Below, one piece after another: positions 20,325 through 33,597 of a stretch of DNA of 64,000 nucleotides. The notes beneath the pieces were generated by a model. The model did no database searches. It was not told the origin of the DNA and saw only the letters and a list, made by a program, of their open reading frames with translations. Positions within the stretch are counted from its first letter, which is position 1, and the number at the start of each line of letters is the position of its first letter. Both the position numbers and the translations under genes were made by a program. The stretch lies in assembly GCF_056712565.1 (NCBI RefSeq), contig NZ_CM160072.1. One strand, 5' to 3'.

Positions 20325-21236
20325 TTAACGTTGTGCTTCGCCACCTAATCCTTCAATCAGGTTTTGAATTAACGCTGCCAGTTCACCAGTCATCAGGATG
20401 AAATCGGCATCAAAGCGCTGGGCGAAATCTTCACGGTCGATATCTTCGTTTTGATCGCGCAGCTCGTCGCAGAACTTCAGACGCTTGAGCGAACCATCGT
20501 CGCACATCACAAACTGAATGCGCTGCTGCCAGTCAAGCGCCAGTTTAGTCACCACTTTTCCGGCTTCAATGTGGTTGGTGATCTCTTCGCTGGTCAGATC
20601 TTGTTTCTTCGCGCGGATCACGCCGCCATCTTCCAGCAACGATTTCAGCTCGGCTTCATCAAGCAGCTGGAAGCCCTGTGCCGCGCTGCCGGAACGTACC
20701 CATTCGGTCAGCGTCAGTTCAATCGGGTTTTCCATGCTCAATGGTACAACCGGTAACGACCCCAGGCTTTTACGCAGCAGTGCCAGCGTATCTTCCGCTT
20801 TTTTGGCGCTGGCGCAGTCCACCATAATCAAACCGTTAACCGTGTCGATCCACATCATTGTCTGGCTAAAACGGCTGAAAGCACGCGGCAGCAGAGAGTG
20901 CAGCACTTCGTCTTTCAGCGAATCTTTTTCGGTTTTCTTCAGCTTACGCGCCTGTTCTGCTTCCAGTTTGGCGATTTTCGCTTCCAGCGCCTGTTTAATC
21001 ACCGGGGACGGGAGGATTTTTTCTTCTTTGCGCGCACAGATAACAATTTGACCATTGGCAACGTGCGTTAACGCATCGCTGTGCGATCCCATCGGAGGTA
21101 CCCAGCCCATCTTCGCCATGTCCTGGCTGCCGCATGGGGTAAATGCCATCGAGGCTAGCTGTTTTTCCATCTCTTCTGCACGCAGCGAAATCTCGCGGCT
21201 AAGACGGTAAACCATTAAATTTTTGAACCACAGCAT
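20325..21236 (-). CDS. rdgC: recombination-associated protein RdgC
   Basis: Start at 21236 gives [39 protein letters not shown]... (303 aa); ORF-track start 21308 rejected. Confidence 0.93.
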
Positions 21237-28379: not shown

Positions 28380-29069
28380 ATGGCGAGACGTATTCTGGTC
28401 GTAGAAGATGAAGCTCCAATTCGCGAAATGGTCTGCTTCGTGCTCGAACAAAATGGCTTTCAGCCGGTCGAAGCGGAAGATTATGACAGTGCTGTGAATC
28501 AACTGAATGAACCCTGGCCGGATTTAATTCTCCTTGACTGGATGTTACCTGGCGGCTCCGGTATCCAGTTCATCAAACACCTCAAGCGCGAGTCGATGAC
28601 CCGGGATATTCCAGTGGTGATGTTGACCGCCAGAGGGGAAGAAGAAGATCGCGTGCGCGGCCTTGAAACCGGTGCGGATGACTATATCACCAAGCCGTTT
28701 TCTCCGAAGGAGCTGGTGGCGCGAATCAAAGCGGTAATGCGCCGTATTTCGCCAATGGCGGTGGAAGAGGTGATCGAGATGCAGGGGCTAAGTCTGGACC
28801 CGACATCTCACCGGGTGATGGCGGGCGAAGAACCGCTGGAGATGGGGCCGACAGAATTTAAACTGCTGCACTTTTTTATGACGCATCCTGAGCGCGTGTA
28901 CAGTCGCGAGCAACTGTTAAATCACGTATGGGGAACCAACGTGTATGTGGAAGATCGTACGGTCGATGTCCACATTCGTCGCCTGCGTAAAGCACTGGAG
29001 CCCGGCGGGCATGACCGCATGGTGCAGACCGTGCGCGGTACAGGGTATCGTTTTTCAACCCGCTTTTAA
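28380..29069 (+). CDS. phoB: phosphate regulon response regulator PhoB
   Basis: 229 aa; receiver domain ([28 protein letters not shown]) and OmpR-type winged helix. Confidence 0.97.
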
Positions 29070-29126: not shown

Positions 29127-30422
29127 GTGCTGGAACGGCTGTCGTGGAAAAGGCTGGTGCTGGAGCTGCTACTTTGCTGCCTCCCGGCTTTCATCCTGGG
29201 TGCATTTTTTGGTTACCTGCCCTGGTTTTTGCTGGCATCGGTAACAGGACTGCTTATCTGGCATTTCTGGAATTTATTGCGCCTTTCATGGTGGCTGTGG
29301 GTGGATCGTAGTATGACCCCGCCACCGGGGCGTGGTAGCTGGGAACCGCTACTATACGGCTTACACCAGATGCAGCTGCGAAATAAAAAACGCCGCCGTG
29401 AACTGGGCAATCTGATTAAACGCTTTCGTAGCGGCGCGGAGTCGCTGCCCGACGCGGTGGTGCTGACCACGGAAGAGGGCGGTATTTTCTGGTGCAACGG
29501 TCTGGCGCAACAGATTCTTGGCTTGCGCTGGCCGGAAGATAACGGGCAGAACATCCTTAACTTGCTGCGTTACCCGGAGTTTACGCAATATCTGAAAATG
29601 CGTGATTTCTCTCGCCCGCTCAATCTGGTGCTCAATACCGGGCGGCATCTGGAGATTCGCGTCATGCCTTATACCCACAAACAGTTGCTGATGGTGGCGC
29701 GAGATGTCACGCAAATGCATCAACTGGAAGGGGCGCGGCGTAACTTTTTTGCCAACGTGAGCCATGAGTTACGTACGCCATTGACCGTGTTACAGGGTTA
29801 CCTGGAGATGATGGATGAGCAACCGCTGGAAGGCGCGGTACGTGAAAAAGCGTTGCACACCATGCGCGAGCAGACCCAGCGGATGGAAGGGTTGGTGAAG
29901 CAATTGCTGACGCTGTCGAAAATAGAAGCCGCACCGACGCATTTGCTCAATGAAAAGGTTGATGTGCCGATGATGCTGCGCGTCGTTGAGCGCGAGGCTC
30001 AGACTCTGAGTCAGAAAAAACAGACATTTACCTTTGAGATAGATAACGGCCTCAAGGTGTCAGGCAACGAAGATCAGCTACGCAGTGCGATTTCGAACCT
30101 GGTCTATAACGCCGTGAATCATACGCCGGAAGGCACGCATATCACCGTACGCTGGCAGCGAGTGCCGCACGGTGCCGAATTTAGTGTTGAAGATAACGGA
30201 CCGGGCATTGCACCGGAGCATATTCCGCGCCTGACCGAGCGTTTTTATCGCGTTGATAAAGCGCGTTCCCGGCAAACCGGCGGTAGCGGATTAGGGTTAG
30301 CGATCGTGAAACATGCGGTGAATCATCACGAAAGTCGCCTGAATATTGAGAGTACAGTAGGAAAAGGTACACGTTTCAGTTTTGTTATCCCGGAACGTTT
30401 AATTGCCAAAAACAGCGATTAA
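29127..30422 (+). CDS. phoR: phosphate regulon sensor histidine kinase PhoR
   Basis: 431 aa; N-terminal TM segment; H-box [14 protein letters not shown]-binding G-boxes ([16 protein letters not shown]). Confidence 0.96.
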
Positions 30423-30448
30423 TTCGCCTTTGTCATCTTTTATTGCCA

Positions 30449-30478
30449 TAAGCCAGCCGATGCTGGCTTATTTTCTTT
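30449..30478 (+). terminator. rho-independent terminator after phoR
   Basis: AAGCCAGC-CGAT-GCTGGCTT followed by ATTTTCTTT. Confidence 0.75.
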
Positions 30479-30828
30479 GCAGTCGAAATACGGGCGTTAG
30501 ATTTTACAACGGTTGGTGATTTTTTGTTCGCATGATTAGCCATGTCTTTTTCACGGAAATAGTGTTTTGTACTGGTTGGTGATTTCTTATCGCTATATAC
30601 CTCTGGTTTTTAGATCCCTTCTTGCTTTAAAACGTTATAAGCGTTTAAATTGCGCTTCAGGTGCTGTCATACTGACTGCATTCACGCGGTAAATCGAAAA
30701 ACTATTCTTCGCCGCGCCTGGTTGGGAGTATTTCCCGCTAAAATTGTTTAAATATACCGCTGTATCATCCCCAGGGATTGGCACAAAAATTTAACGTTAC
30801 AACACCACATCCACAGGCAGTATGATTT

Positions 30829-32148
30829 ATGACCCATCAATTAAGATCGCGCGATATCATCGCTCTGGGCTTTATGACATTTGCGTTGTTCGTCGGCGCA
30901 GGTAACATTATTTTCCCTCCAATGGTCGGCTTGCAGGCAGGCGAACACGTCTGGACTGCGGCATTCGGCTTCCTCATTACTGCCGTTGGCCTACCGGTAT
31001 TAACGGTAGTGGCGCTGGCAAAAGTTGGCGGCGGTGTTGACAGTCTCAGCACGCCAATTGGTAAAGTCGCTGGCGTACTGCTGGCAACAGTTTGTTACCT
31101 GGCGGTGGGGCCGCTTTTCGCTACGCCGCGTACAGCTACCGTTTCTTTTGAAGTGGGGATTGCGCCGCTGACGGGTGATTCCGCGCTGCCGCTGTTTATT
31201 TACAGCCTGGTCTATTTCGCTATCGTTATTCTGGTTTCGCTCTATCCGGGCAAGCTGCTGGATACCGTGGGCAACTTCCTTGCGCCGCTGAAAATTATCG
31301 CGCTGGTCATCCTGTCTGTTGCCGCAATTATCTGGCCGGCGGGTTCTATCAGCACGGCGACTGAGGCTTATCAAAACGCTGCGTTTTCTAACGGCTTCGT
31401 CAACGGCTATCTGACCATGGATACGCTGGGCGCAATGGTGTTTGGTATCGTTATTGTTAACGCGGCGCGTTCTCGTGGCGTTACCGAAGCGCGTCTGCTG
31501 ACCCGTTATACCGTCTGGGCTGGCCTGATGGCGGGTGTTGGTCTGACTCTGCTGTACCTGGCGCTGTTCCGTCTGGGTTCAGACAGCGCGTCGCTGGTCG
31601 ATCAGTCTGCAAACGGTGCGGCGATCCTGCATGCTTACGTTCAGCATACCTTTGGCGGCGGCGGTAGCTTCCTGCTGGCGGCGTTAATCTTCATCGCCTG
31701 CCTGGTCACGGCGGTTGGCCTGACCTGTGCTTGTGCAGAATTCTTCGCCCAGTACGTACCGCTCTCTTATCGTACGCTGGTGTTTATCCTCGGCGGCTTC
31801 TCGATGGTGGTGTCTAACCTCGGCTTGAGCCAGCTGATTCAGATCTCTGTACCGGTGCTGACCGCCATTTATCCGCCGTGTATCGCACTGGTTGTATTAA
31901 GTTTTACACGCTCATGGTGGCATAATTCGTCCCGCGTGATTGCTCCGCCGATGTTTATCAGCCTGCTTTTTGGTATTCTCGACGGGATCAAGGCATCTGC
32001 ATTCAGCGATATCTTACCGTCCTGGGCGCAGCGTTTACCGCTGGCCGAACAAGGTCTGGCGTGGTTAATGCCAACAGTGGTGATGGTGGTTCTGGCCATT
32101 ATCTGGGATCGTGCGGCAGGTCGTCAGGTGACCTCCAGCGCTCACTAA
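30829..32148 (+). CDS. brnQ: branched-chain amino acid:cation symporter BrnQ
   Basis: 439 aa polytopic membrane protein; [34 protein letters not shown]... Confidence 0.95.
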
Positions 32149-32223
32149 ATCACTGAACATTTGTTTTAACCACGGGGCTGCGATGCCCCGTGGTTTTTTA
32201 TTGTGTTGATGGGTTAGGAATTG

Positions 32224-33597
32224 ATGGAAAGTAAGAACAAGCTAAAGCGTGGGCTAAGTACCCGACACATACGCTTTATGGCACTGGGTTCAGCAATTGG
32301 CACCGGGCTGTTTTACGGTTCGGCAGATGCCATCAAAATGGCCGGTCCAAGCGTGTTGTTGGCCTATATTATCGGTGGTATCGCGGCGTATATCATTATG
32401 CGTGCGCTGGGGGAAATGTCGGTACATAACCCGGCAGCCAGCTCTTTCTCGCGTTATGCGCAGGAAAACCTCGGCCCGCTGGCAGGTTACATTACCGGCT
32501 GGACCTACTGCTTTGAAATCCTTATTGTCGCCATCGCCGATGTGACCGCTTTTGGTATCTATATGGGTGTCTGGTTCCCGACGGTGCCGCACTGGATTTG
32601 GGTACTGAGTGTGGTGCTGATCATTTGCGCCGTAAACCTGATGAGCGTGAAGGTATTCGGTGAGCTGGAGTTCTGGTTCTCGTTCTTTAAAGTCGCCACT
32701 ATCATCATCATGATTGTCGCCGGTTTCGGCATCATCATCTGGGGGATTGGCAACGGCGGGCAACCGACCGGTATTCATAACCTGTGGAGCAACGGCGGCT
32801 TCTTCAGTAACGGCTGGCTTGGTATGGTGATGTCGTTGCAAATGGTGATGTTTGCTTACGGTGGGATCGAAATTATCGGGATTACCGCCGGTGAAGCGAA
32901 AGATCCTGAGAAATCGATTCCGCGTGCGATTAACTCCGTGCCGATGCGTATTCTGGTGTTCTACGTCGGTACGCTGTTCGTCATTATGTCTATCTACCCG
33001 TGGAATCAGGTTGGCACTGCCGGTAGCCCGTTTGTGCTGACGTTCCAGCATATGGGCATTACCTTTGCCGCCAGCATTCTTAACTTTGTTGTGCTGACCG
33101 CTTCGCTGTCGGCAATTAACAGTGACGTATTTGGTGTAGGCCGTATGCTCCACGGTATGGCAGAGCAGGGCAGCGCGCCAAAAATTTTCAGCAAAACCTC
33201 GCGTCGCGGTATTCCGTGGGTTACGGTGCTGGTGATGACTACCGCGCTGCTGTTTGCGGTGTATCTGAACTACATCATGCCGGAAAACGTCTTCCTGGTG
33301 ATCGCTTCGCTGGCAACCTTCGCCACGGTGTGGGTGTGGATTATGATCCTGCTGTCGCAAATCGCCTTCCGTCGCCGTTTGCCGCCAGAAGAAGTTAAGG
33401 CGCTGAAATTTAAAGTGCCGGGTGGGGTAGCAACGACCATCGGCGGTTTGATTTTCCTGCTCTTTATTATCGGGTTGATTGGTTATCACCCGGATACGCG
33501 TATCTCGCTGTATGTCGGTTTCGCGTGGATTGTTGTGCTGTTGATTGGCTGGATGTTTAAGCGCCGCCACGATCGTCAGCTGGCTGAAAACCAGTAA
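32224..33597 (+). CDS. proY: APC-family amino-acid permease ProY
   Basis: [34 protein letters not shown]...; second ATG of ORF taken. Confidence 0.94.

What the first reader, a model, noticed from the sequence alone, without database searches (positions are those of the whole stretch)
30511..30588. Two direct repeats GGTTGGTGATTT(T/C)TT spaced 63 bp apart upstream of brnQ
Seen directly: ACGGTTGGTGATTTTTTGT at 30511 and CTGGTTGGTGATTTCTTAT at 30574, identical at 14 of 15 core positions and about six helical turns apart, in the 400-bp phoR-brnQ spacer. The spacing and conservation suggest paired binding sites for a regulator, or a small duplicated promoter module.
Basis: seen in the sequence. 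Interest (0 to 1): 0.4.

Follow-up and report, generated by a model that had tools for sequence, protein, structure and literature searches.

The report
Coincidental repeat upstream of brnQ promoter
Two nearly identical 15-base stretches upstream of the E. coli branched-chain amino acid transporter gene brnQ are really there, but they fall in the least conserved bases of an ordinary regulatory region that probably binds Lrp, so the match is most likely an accident rather than a pair of binding sites.

Summary
The repeat is real. GGTTGGTGATTTTTT (30511-30525) and GGTTGGTGATTTCTT (30574-30588) match at 14 of 15 positions, 63 bp apart, in the 406-bp phoR-brnQ spacer of E. coli.

A published start-site map puts the brnQ start at 30659, so the copies lie at -148..-134 and -85..-71, upstream of a conserved sigma-70 promoter.

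Across about 80 Enterobacteriaceae, the GGTTGGTGA cores are the most variable part of an otherwise strongly conserved region. Copy 2 is the least conserved stretch. The 14/15 state is confined to E. coli, and K-12 has 13/15. Both copies vary more within E. coli than the core promoter does. The flanks show no extra similarity, so this is not a duplication.

A published Lrp genomic-SELEX peak maps midway between the copies. Five Lrp-consensus-like 15-mers, spaced about 32 bp, run from -164 to -20 and keep their positions across the family. The two copies fill the linkers after sites 1 and 3.

Verdict: this is an ordinary Lrp-type upstream region. The near-identity is most probably a lineage-specific coincidence in weakly constrained linker DNA. 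Interest is low. One oddity remains: Kluyvera species carry their own, different direct repeat in the same two linkers.

The parts
30511..30525 (+). Repeat copy 1, GGTTGGTGATTTTTT, at -148..-134 of the brnQ start site. It fills the linker between Lrp-like sites 1 and 2. Its T6 tail belongs to a conserved block.
   Evidence: Searches confirm the sequence. Family-wide conservation per base is 0.7, 0.2, 0.4, 0.9, 1.0, 0.2, 0.8, 0.6, 0.2, then about 1.0 for the T run. The exact 30-mer around it is present in 3840 of 5426 E. coli genomes. K-12 has GATTGG.
30574..30588 (+). Repeat copy 2, GGTTGGTGATTTCTT, at -85..-71. It fills the linker between Lrp-like sites 3 and 4.
   Evidence: Searches confirm the sequence. 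It is the least conserved stretch of the upstream region, with per-base conservation of 0.0-0.7. The exact 30-mer is present in 5106 of 5426 E. coli genomes, against 5420 for the core promoter.
30448..30471 (+). phoR intrinsic terminator: a 10-bp stem, a 4-nt loop and a T run. It ends the upstream transcription unit before the repeats.
   Evidence: Terminator scan and inverted repeat I2. The stem is conserved in related genera.
30495..30509 (+). Lrp-consensus-like site 1, CGTTAGATTTTACAA, 11/15, at -164..-150.
   Evidence: A score of at least 10 is found at the homologous position in 74% of 80 sequences.
30528..30542 (-). Lrp-consensus-like site 2 (minus-strand match TGGCTAATCATGCGA, 11/15), at -131..-117. 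It lies inside the near-invariant block 30520-30552.
   Evidence: score of at least 10 in 82% of species; block conservation.
30560..30574 (+). Lrp-consensus-like site 3, TAGTGTTTTGTACTG, 12/15, at -99..-85. It is the best match in the spacer and also the best match to AGAATwwwATTCT (9/13).
   Evidence: score of at least 10 in 95% of species.
30591..30605 (+). Lrp-consensus-like site 4, CGCTATATACCTCTG, 10/15, at -68..-54.
   Evidence: score of at least 10 in 100% of species, mean 12.0.
30625..30639 (-). Lrp-consensus-like site 5 (minus-strand match TATAACGTTTTAAAG, 10/15), at -34..-20. It overlaps the -35/-10 spacer.
   Evidence: score of at least 10 in 56% of species.
30622..30659 (+). brnQ sigma-70 promoter: -35 TTGCTT (30622-27), a 17-bp spacer, -10 TTAAAT (30645-50), and the start site A at 30659. 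The 5' UTR is 170 nt.
   Evidence: The start site comes from Kim et al. 2012, PMC3415461, supplementary file 2: position 418645, with the 50 nt upstream identical to this sequence. The hexamers are read from the sequence. The block is invariant across genera and present in 5420 of 5426 E. coli genomes.
30829..32148 (+). brnQ coding sequence (branched-chain amino acid carrier), the gene served by this upstream region.
   Evidence: for the ORF; for the RefSeq annotation of the identical stretch in E. coli ATCC 11775.

Best explanation
The two 15-mers lie in the upstream regulatory DNA of the sigma-70 brnQ promoter, at -148..-134 and -85..-71. This region most likely binds the global regulator Lrp through an array of five degenerate sites spaced about 32 bp apart, from -164 to -20. 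Lrp would wrap the DNA and modulate brnQ-proY transcription. The last site overlaps the -35/-10 spacer.

The repeated G/T-rich cores are not the recognition elements. They fill the linkers after sites 1 and 3. This explains why they sit two array periods apart, which is six helical turns. It also explains why the similarity extends weakly upstream: there it runs into the 3' halves of sites 1 and 3.

The near-identity itself is most probably a recent coincidence specific to E. coli, arising in weakly constrained linker DNA.

Shown: the repeat, the start site, the positions, the lack of conservation, the polymorphism, and the in-vitro Lrp peak at the level of the region. Inferred: the individual Lrp sites, the wrapping, and the claim that the identity has no function.
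For: (1) Start site and positions. The brnQ start site is at window 30659, with a conserved TTGCTT-17-TTAAAT promoter. This fixes the copies at -148..-134 and -85..-71.

(2) Conservation across species. In alignments of 10, 12 and ~80 Enterobacteriaceae spacers, the GGTTGGTGA cores fall in the variable gaps between near-invariant blocks. Identity between the two homologous 15-mers is 14 in this E. coli, 12 in E. albertii, 10-11 in other Escherichia lineages, and mostly 3-7 elsewhere.

(3) Polymorphism within E. coli. The exact 30-mer around copy 1 is found in 71% of 5426 complete genomes, around copy 2 in 94%, and in the core promoter in 99.9%. K-12 carries GATTGG in copy 1. The outgroups have A or T at 30512, so the perfect 12-mer core is a derived state.

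(4) No duplication. The 48-nt flanks are no more alike than shuffles (P = 0.97 and 0.58).

(5) Lrp binding. The genomic SELEX-chip of Shimada et al. 2015 lists an Lrp site at map position 418,534 in the phoR>brnQ spacer. With the brnQ ATG at 418,815, this is window ~30548, between the copies. The array used 60-nt probes every 105 bp.

(6) The array in E. coli. In 30476-30660 only six 15-mers match yAGhAwATTwTdCTr at 10/15 or better. Five of them form a chain spaced 33/32/31/34 bp (P = 0.004-0.006; 0.03-0.04 with narrower spacing windows). The consensus is confirmed.

(7) The array across species. Across 80 sequences, a score of at least 10 is found at the five homologous sites in 74, 82, 95, 100 and 56%, against 10, 20, 35 and 0% in the linkers. 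Chains of 4 or more occur in 58 of 80 sequences, against 26 of 800 shuffles.
Against: The evidence for an Lrp array rests on a very degenerate, AT-rich consensus. No site reaches 13/15. The stricter AGAATwwwATTCT consensus gives no significant chain. I chose the spacing window after seeing the hits. The cross-species counts are not independent, because the sequences are related and partly conserved for unknown reasons.

The SELEX peak is an in-vitro result with a resolution of about +/-100 bp. I found no in-vivo ChIP or expression evidence that Lrp controls brnQ (one search found nothing; the paper sought is not held).

Two observations argue against 'pure coincidence'. Inside this spacer the repeat is rare in shuffles (0.12%). 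Three Kluyvera species carry their own 13-14/15 direct repeat, of a different sequence and with 59-bp spacing, in the same two linkers. This hints that the two linkers may not drift fully independently.
Confidence: 0.55

Rival explanations
1. Pure coincidence in a region with no Lrp array. The repeat is a chance match, and the apparent ~32-bp chain of Lrp-like 15-mers is an artefact of scoring AT-rich conserved DNA with a degenerate consensus. The conserved blocks would then serve some other, unidentified factor or promoter-upstream function.
For: About 20-24% of shuffled 64-kb windows hold at least one repeat of this class. The Lrp consensus hits are weak, at most 12/15, and their number in the spacer is not above chance (P = 0.1-0.3). 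The stricter consensus shows no chain. TT/AA helical phasing is not significant.
Against: A published Lrp SELEX peak maps between the copies. The chain statistic is P = 0.004-0.04 in E. coli. The Lrp-like scores persist at homologous positions even where the sequence itself varies, as at sites 1, 3 and 4.
Confidence: 0.2
2. The repeats themselves are paired, sequence-specific binding sites on the same face of the helix. They would bind a regulator cooperatively, or loop the DNA, in E. coli only. The regulator could be Lrp recognising a non-canonical site, or another factor.
For: The cores match 12/12 and lie exactly six helical turns apart. The repeat is rare within the spacer. Copy 2 is fixed in 94% and copy 1 in at least 71% of E. 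coli genomes. The Lrp SELEX peak is centred between them. Kluyvera has an analogous self-similar pair.
Against: The cores are the least conserved positions of the region and differ even among Escherichia species. Lrp is a conserved regulator with a well-characterised consensus (established knowledge, not checked here), so real Lrp sites would be expected to stay conserved. Both copies are more polymorphic than the promoter. There is no family-wide covariation between the copy-1 core and the downstream segment (P = 0.31). The copies match the Lrp consensus poorly. The only other near-match in the window lies inside a long ORF on both strands.
Confidence: 0.15
3. A relic of a ~63-bp tandem duplication, or a duplicated small promoter module.
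For: The repeat is direct with a fixed 63-bp spacing, and the 24-nt ungapped extension matches 19/24.
Against: The flanking 48 nt on either side are no more alike than shuffled sequence. The intervening block is near-invariant and present in all genera, so nothing was inserted recently. No sigma-70-like hexamer pair is found in either unit. The only start site listed for brnQ lies downstream of both. The spacer segment is the same length (146 nt) in most species.
Confidence: 0.03
4. An enhancer for a sigma-54 promoter. The TGGTGA in each copy would be a half-site for NtrC acting on the sigma-54-like TGGCAC-N5-TTTAA element at 30779-30794.
For: A genomic SELEX with RpoN holoenzyme plus NtrC gave a peak in the phoR/brnQ spacer. 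TGGCAC at 30779-84 matches the -24 element.
Against: Neither copy has the palindromic partner expected of an NtrC site (TGCACC-N5-GGTGCA, from established knowledge; read from the sequence). The -12 GC is missing. That SELEX peak (418,832) maps near the brnQ ATG, about 250-320 bp from the copies. The cores are not conserved.
Confidence: 0.03
5. An RNA-level role. In read-through transcripts from phoR, the G/U-rich repeats would pair with the C/A-rich GcvB target near the brnQ ribosome-binding site.
For: UGGUG in the repeats is complementary to CACCA in the invariant CAACACCACAUCCACAGGC (read from the sequence).
Against: Both copies lie upstream of the mapped start site and downstream of a strong phoR terminator. 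Only 5 bp can pair. The region shows no fold beyond shuffles (z = +0.5). The cores are not conserved, while the C/A site is invariant.
Confidence: 0.02

Closest known systems
Phased Lrp-binding-site arrays upstream of Lrp-controlled promoters, such as ilvIH, pap and gltBDF (from established knowledge of these systems)
   Same: Several degenerate AT-rich sites lie about 30-33 bp apart over about 150 bp upstream of, and overlapping, a sigma-70 promoter of an amino-acid gene. Lrp binds the spacer in vitro.
   Different: No footprint, no in-vivo occupancy and no Lrp-dependent expression has been shown for brnQ in what I could retrieve. The sites are weak, at most 12/15.
Direct-repeat operator boxes of response regulators, such as the PhoB pho boxes next door in the pho regulon and OmpR sites (from established knowledge)
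   Same: Direct, not inverted, repeats upstream of a promoter on the same helical face.
   Different: Those boxes are 7-10-bp units spaced about 11 bp apart, conserved across genera, and recur at many promoters. These are 15-mers 63 bp apart, not conserved, and without a pho-box sequence.
Upstream T-tract or curved DNA and UP-element-like sequences
   Same: T runs at 30520-25, 30547-51 and 30606-10 are the conserved parts of the region. The T tails of both copies belong to this T-rich pattern.
   Different: The helical (10.5-bp) phasing of TT/AA is not significant overall. The G-rich halves of the repeat play no part in such elements.

Membership tests
Phased Lrp-binding-site array | Lrp protein binds the DNA | tested here: met
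   Met at the level of the region and in vitro only. Published genomic SELEX-chip peak at 418,534, which is window ~30548, with probes every 105 bp. No in-vivo data were found.
Phased Lrp-binding-site array | Several sites matching the Lrp consensus | tested here: inconclusive
   Five 15-mers score 10-12 of 15 against yAGhAwATTwTdCTr. The number of hits in the whole spacer is not above chance (P = 0.1-0.3). AGAATwwwATTCT gives only 9/13 and 8/13 at two of them.
Phased Lrp-binding-site array | Sites spaced about 30-33 bp centre to centre | tested here: met
   The spacings are 33/32/31/34 bp. P = 0.004-0.006 for a 30-34 bp window and 0.03-0.04 for narrower windows. Other spacing windows give nothing. 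The window was chosen after seeing the hits.
Phased Lrp-binding-site array | Site positions kept in orthologous promoters | tested here: met
   A score of at least 10 is found at the five homologous positions in 74, 82, 95, 100 and 56% of 80 sequences, against 0-35% in the linkers. Chains of 4 or more occur in 58 of 80, against 26 of 800 shuffles. The sequences are related, so these counts overstate independence.
Phased Lrp-binding-site array | Expression of the target gene depends on Lrp and is modulated by leucine | not tested
   No expression data for brnQ in an lrp mutant could be retrieved (one search failed; concern other genes).
Phased Lrp-binding-site array | The flagged 15-mers are themselves the Lrp sites | tested here: not met
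   The best 15-mer overlapping copy 1 scores 10/15 (30514) and copy 2 scores below 10. The copies lie between the better sites and are the least conserved bases.
Paired sequence-specific operator sites | Two near-identical sites on the same helical face | tested here: met
   14/15 identity with 63-bp spacing, which is 6.0 turns at 10.5 bp per turn.
Paired sequence-specific operator sites | Both sites conserved in orthologous promoters | tested here: not met
   The copy 2 region has per-base conservation of 0.0-0.7. The copy 1 core varies at 4 of 9 positions. Identity between the homologous 15-mers is mostly 3-7 of 15 outside Escherichia.
Paired sequence-specific operator sites | Lower polymorphism than neighbouring DNA within the species | tested here: not met
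   The exact 30-mer is present in 71% of genomes (copy 1) and 94% (copy 2), against 99.9% for the core promoter, out of 5426 E. coli genomes.
Paired sequence-specific operator sites | The motif recurs upstream of other genes (a regulon) | not testable with these tools
   Only the 64-kb window could be scanned. It holds one further match with one mismatch, at 20573, inside long ORFs. A whole-genome intergenic scan was not possible.
Tandem duplication / duplicated promoter module | Similarity extends over the whole 63-bp unit | tested here: not met
   The local alignment of the two units returns only the 15-mer. The downstream and upstream 48-nt flanks give P = 0.97 and 0.58.
Tandem duplication / duplicated promoter module | Each unit carries promoter hexamers or a start site | tested here: not met
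   The scan found no sigma-70-like sites in 30380-30880. The only start site listed for brnQ, at 30659, lies downstream of both copies.
Sigma-54 enhancer (NtrC sites) | Palindromic TGCACC-N5-GGTGCA sites upstream of a GG-N10-GC promoter | tested here: not met
   Each copy has only TGGTGA, with no inverted partner. The candidate promoter TGGCAC-N5-TTTAA (30779-94) lacks the -12 GC (read from the sequence). The RpoN+NtrC SELEX peak lies near the ATG, not near the copies.

The most novel reading that the evidence does not exclude
The two linkers of the array, after sites 1 and 3, are kept similar to each other within a genome while differing between genera. Escherichia has GGTTGGTGATTT(T/C)TT at 63-bp spacing. 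Kluyvera has CGTCTG(A/C)TTATTTTTT or GTCTGGTTGTT at 59-bp spacing. This would point either to selection for matched DNA properties at equivalent positions of a wrapped Lrp-DNA complex, or to short-tract conversion between the linkers. On this reading the flagged repeat would be one case of a recurrent pattern and not an accident.
Probability: 0.1. Interest if true: 0.35.

Novelty: not a real feature. Interest (0 to 1): 0.12.

Why it matters
It matters little. If the repeat had been a conserved pair of operators, it would have pointed to an unknown regulator of branched-chain amino acid uptake. The evidence shows instead an ordinary upstream region. Lrp binding to it is already on record at the level of the region, and the eye-catching identity falls on the least constrained bases.

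The useful by-product is a site-level proposal for how Lrp could contact the brnQ promoter: five phased sites from -164 to -20. It is cheap to test and would complement the known GcvB control of brnQ. The case also shows that exact short repeats in AT-rich spacers need a conservation check before they are read as binding sites.

Tried and rejected
Approaches that gave nothing:
- Rfam scan of 30350-30900 at E-value up to 10: only noise, and nothing over the repeats.
- Sigma-70 consensus scan: no hits in the spacer at its threshold. The real promoter was found through the published start site instead.
- Single-strand fold of 30495-30625: no structure (z = +0.5).
- RNAalifold of the 5' UTR in 14 genera: no conserved structure (-1.7 kcal/mol, no covariation).
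- Literature search for the two sequence strings: only unrelated primer matches.
- Papers on BCAA transport, CRP, TyrR and GcvB: no site-level information on the brnQ promoter.
- Two papers were not held, and one had no supplementary files held.

Hypotheses tested and rejected or left unsupported:
- 63-bp tandem duplication: rejected.
- Target-site duplication around an inserted element: rejected, because the 48 bp between the copies is the most conserved block and is present in all genera.
- Small ORF MISHVFFTEIVFCTGW (30532-30582), whose stop codon lies in copy 2: rejected as a gene. It lies upstream of the start site. By my reading of the aligned sequences, its length varies from 8 to more than 30 codons between species.
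- Helical phasing of TT/AA: not significant overall.
- Family-wide covariation between the copy-1 core and the downstream segment: none (P = 0.31).
- Averaged self-similarity by lag: peaks at 31, 59-63 and 87-90 bp. The sequences are related, so I give this little weight.

Full report
**Where the window comes from and what is in it.** The phoR-brnQ spacer of the window (30423-30828) is 100% identical to E. coli ATCC 11775 and is present in 5424 of 5426 complete E. coli genomes. The local genes, all on the + strand, are phoB (28380-29069), phoR (29127-30422), brnQ (30829-32148) and proY (32221-33597). No feature is annotated in the 406-bp phoR-brnQ spacer in RefSeq.

**The observation.** GGTTGGTGATTTTTT lies at 30511-30525 and GGTTGGTGATTTCTT at 30574-30588. 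They match at 14 of 15 positions, including a 12/12 core, 63 bp apart. Without gaps the similarity extends to 24 nt at 19/24.

Chance depends on the frame of reference. Shuffled 64-kb windows contain 0.23-0.30 such pairs (a 15-mer with at most one mismatch within 100 bp), and 20-24% of shuffles have at least one. The real window has two, and the other is a coding repeat at 61781/61844. A reader scanning 64 kb would therefore often meet one by chance. Within this single spacer it is rare: 6 of 5000 shuffles.

**Position relative to the promoter.** The start-site table of Kim et al. 2012 (PMC3415461, supplementary file 2) lists one brnQ start. It is at 418645 in the older K-12 numbering (U00096.2, used in that table), 170 nt upstream of the ATG. 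The 50 upstream bases it gives are TTTAGATCCCTCCTTGCTTTAAAACGTTATAAGCGTTTAAATTGCGCTTCA. This corresponds to window 30659. The promoter reads -35 TTGCTT (30622-27), a 17-bp spacer, and -10 TTAAAT (30645-50).

The copies are therefore at -148..-134 and -85..-71. They lie upstream of the transcript and downstream of the phoR terminator (30448-30471).

**Conservation.** I fetched brnQ loci from 80 species-level genomes of Enterobacteriaceae and aligned the spacers. The region is a mosaic of near-invariant blocks:
- TTTTTTGTTCGCATGATTAGCCATG..TTTTT (30520-52)
- TCTGGTTTT.AGATCCC..TTGCTTTAAAACGTTATAAGCGTTTAAATTGC (30601-53), which is the promoter
- AATCGAAAAACTATTCTTCGCC in the 5' UTR
- CAACACCACATCCACAGGC just before the ATG

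The GGTTGGTGA cores fall in the variable gaps between these blocks. Copy 1 keeps only G..TG.T..TTTTTT. Copy 2 is the least conserved stretch of the whole upstream region.

Identity between the two homologous 15-mers is 14 in this E. coli, 12 in E. albertii, 10-11 in three other Escherichia lineages and one Citrobacter, and mostly 3-7 elsewhere.

Within E. coli the exact 30-mer around copy 1 occurs in 3840 of 5426 genomes. The K-12 allele GATTGG occurs in 362. The 30-mer around copy 2 occurs in 5106, and a 30-mer of the core promoter in 5420. The outgroups have A or T at 30512, so the perfect 12-mer core is a derived state in E. coli.

**Not a duplication, not a structure.** The 48-nt flanks on either side of the cores are no more alike than shuffles (P = 0.97 and 0.58). 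The block between the copies is ancient and present in every genus. The segment is the same length in most species. No Rfam family matches. The DNA strand does not fold beyond shuffles. No promoter-like hexamer pair lies in the copies.

**What the region probably is.** The Lrp genomic SELEX-chip of Shimada et al. 2015 (PMC5320599, Table S1) lists an Lrp-binding site at 418,534 in the phoR>brnQ spacer, with brnQ-proY as the target. The probes were 60-mers every 105 bp. With the brnQ ATG at 418,815, this peak is window ~30548, or -111, midway between the two copies.

I scanned 30476-30660 with the E. coli Lrp consensus yAGhAwATTwTdCTr, whose wording is confirmed in PMC5554404. Only six 15-mers score 10/15 or better. 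Five of them, at 30495, 30528, 30560, 30591 and 30625, form a chain spaced 33/32/31/34 bp. The probability is 0.004-0.006 against shuffles, and 0.03-0.04 with narrower spacing windows. Other spacing windows give nothing.

Across the 80 sequences, scores of at least 10 recur at the five homologous positions in 74, 82, 95, 100 and 56%. In the linkers the figures are 10, 20, 35 and 0%. Chains of four or five occur in 58 of 80 sequences, against 26 of 800 shuffles.

The two repeat copies fill the linkers after sites 1 and 3. This accounts for their spacing, which is two periods of the array. It also accounts for the weak upstream extension of the similarity, TTTTACAAC against TTTTGTACT: these are the 3' halves of sites 1 and 3.

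There are caveats. The consensus is very degenerate. The stricter AGAATwwwATTCT consensus supports only sites 3 and 4 and gives no significant chain. I chose the spacing window after seeing the hits. The species are not independent. The SELEX result is in vitro and of low resolution. I found no in-vivo occupancy or expression data for brnQ.

**Mechanism I commit to (confidence about 0.55).** Lrp binds a phased array from -164 to -20 and modulates the sigma-70 brnQ promoter. The flagged 15-mers are linker DNA, and their near-identity is a coincidence specific to E. coli.

The rivals are:
- No array at all, only coincidence (0.2).
- The copies are themselves paired specific sites (0.15).
- A relic of a duplication (0.03).
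- An NtrC/sigma-54 enhancer (0.03). A peak for RpoN plus NtrC exists in this spacer, but near the ATG.
- An RNA-level role (0.02).

**An unexplained residue.** Three Kluyvera species have their own direct repeat in the same two linkers, with a different sequence and 59-bp spacing. K. ascorbata has CGTCTGATTATTTTT and CGTCTGCTTATTTTT (14/15). K. georgiana has GTCTGGTTGTT in both.

By my rough estimate, each lineage has a chance of about 1% of showing such a match, and about 25-30 independent genera were sampled. Two genera with such repeats is then only marginally unexpected (roughly P = 0.04). A family-wide covariation test is negative (P = 0.31). This is the basis of the 'novel case' and of next step 5.

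**Comparison with what is known, and verdict.** The region works like the phased Lrp arrays of ilvIH, pap or gltBDF (from established knowledge). Membership is supported for binding at the level of the region, for spacing, and for positional conservation. It is inconclusive for site quality and untested for Lrp-dependent expression. The repeat as a pair of operators fails the conservation and polymorphism tests.

The repeat is real as sequence but, most probably, not a functional unit. The surrounding region is ordinary, and its Lrp binding is already on record. Interest is 0.12.

Noticed in passing
window 30801-30819: The C/A-rich stretch CAACACCACATCCACAGGC just upstream of the brnQ ATG is invariant in all genera aligned. 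brnQ is listed as a target of region R1 of the small RNA GcvB, verified in Salmonella and 'conserved' in E. coli (PMC9299463). This stretch is the obvious pairing site.
   Followed up: partly
window 30520-30552: TTTTTTGTTCGCATGATTAGCCATGTCTTTTTC, at -139..-107, is a near-invariant block between the two repeat copies and contains the imperfect palindrome ATGATT/AGCCAT. It overlaps Lrp-like site 2, but it is far more conserved than a degenerate Lrp site would need to be. The factor that constrains it is unknown.
   Followed up: partly
window 30779-30794: TGGCAC-N5-TTTAA resembles a sigma-54 -24/-12 element, with a perfect -24 and no GC at -12. A genomic SELEX with RpoN holoenzyme plus NtrC reported a peak in this spacer at 418,832, near the brnQ ATG (PMC8743547). 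The element is only partly conserved in Citrobacter.
   Followed up: partly
L026 2180-2194 and 2239-2253; L021 2179-2193 and 2238-2252; L029 2181-2195 and 2240-2254: Kluyvera ascorbata, K. sichuanensis and K. georgiana each carry their own 13-14/15 direct repeat at 59-bp spacing. It sits in the same two linkers as the E. coli repeat but has a different sequence (CGTCTG(A/C)TTATTTTT, GTCTGGTTGTT). K. cryocrescens lacks it.
   Followed up: partly
window 30696-30713: AATCGAAAAACTATTCTTCGCC, at +38..+55 of the brnQ 5' UTR, is almost invariant across genera and scores 11/15 against the Lrp consensus on both strands. No conserved RNA structure was found in the UTR, so it may be a protein or small-RNA site at the DNA or RNA level.
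   Followed up: partly
window 30667-30678 and 30814-30825: A 12-nt inverted repeat (11/12 complementary) could pair the 5' end of the brnQ mRNA with the ribosome-binding region. The consensus fold of 14 genera does not include it, and the substitutions I read in Citrobacter are not compensatory.
   Followed up: yes
window 61781-61795 and 61844-61858: This is the only other 15-mer repeat of the same class in the window, and it happens also to be 63 bp apart. It lies in the 3' end of a minus-strand ORF (61762-62718) and encodes a repeated Met/His-rich MDM motif, which from memory looks like the C-terminus of cyoA. It is a coding repeat and unrelated to the finding.
   Followed up: partly
L089 (E. 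coli GDSC2BY4G, NZ_CP136025.1), corresponding to window ~30473: In this strain an IS1A element abuts the spacer, and the match to the window starts only at query base 51. The insertion therefore lies at or just after the phoR terminator, upstream of both repeat copies, which are intact.
   Followed up: no
L004 2072-2130 (Escherichia sp. MOD1-EC7003): The sequence between phoR and its terminator is replaced by GCGTTCACGCCGCATCCGGCATGAAC..., which looks like a REP (repetitive extragenic palindrome) element, judged from memory of the REP consensus.
   Followed up: no
window 20573-20587: GGTTGGTGATCTCTT is the only other match to the repeat in the window (one mismatch). It lies inside long ORFs on both strands and is taken as chance.
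   Followed up: partly
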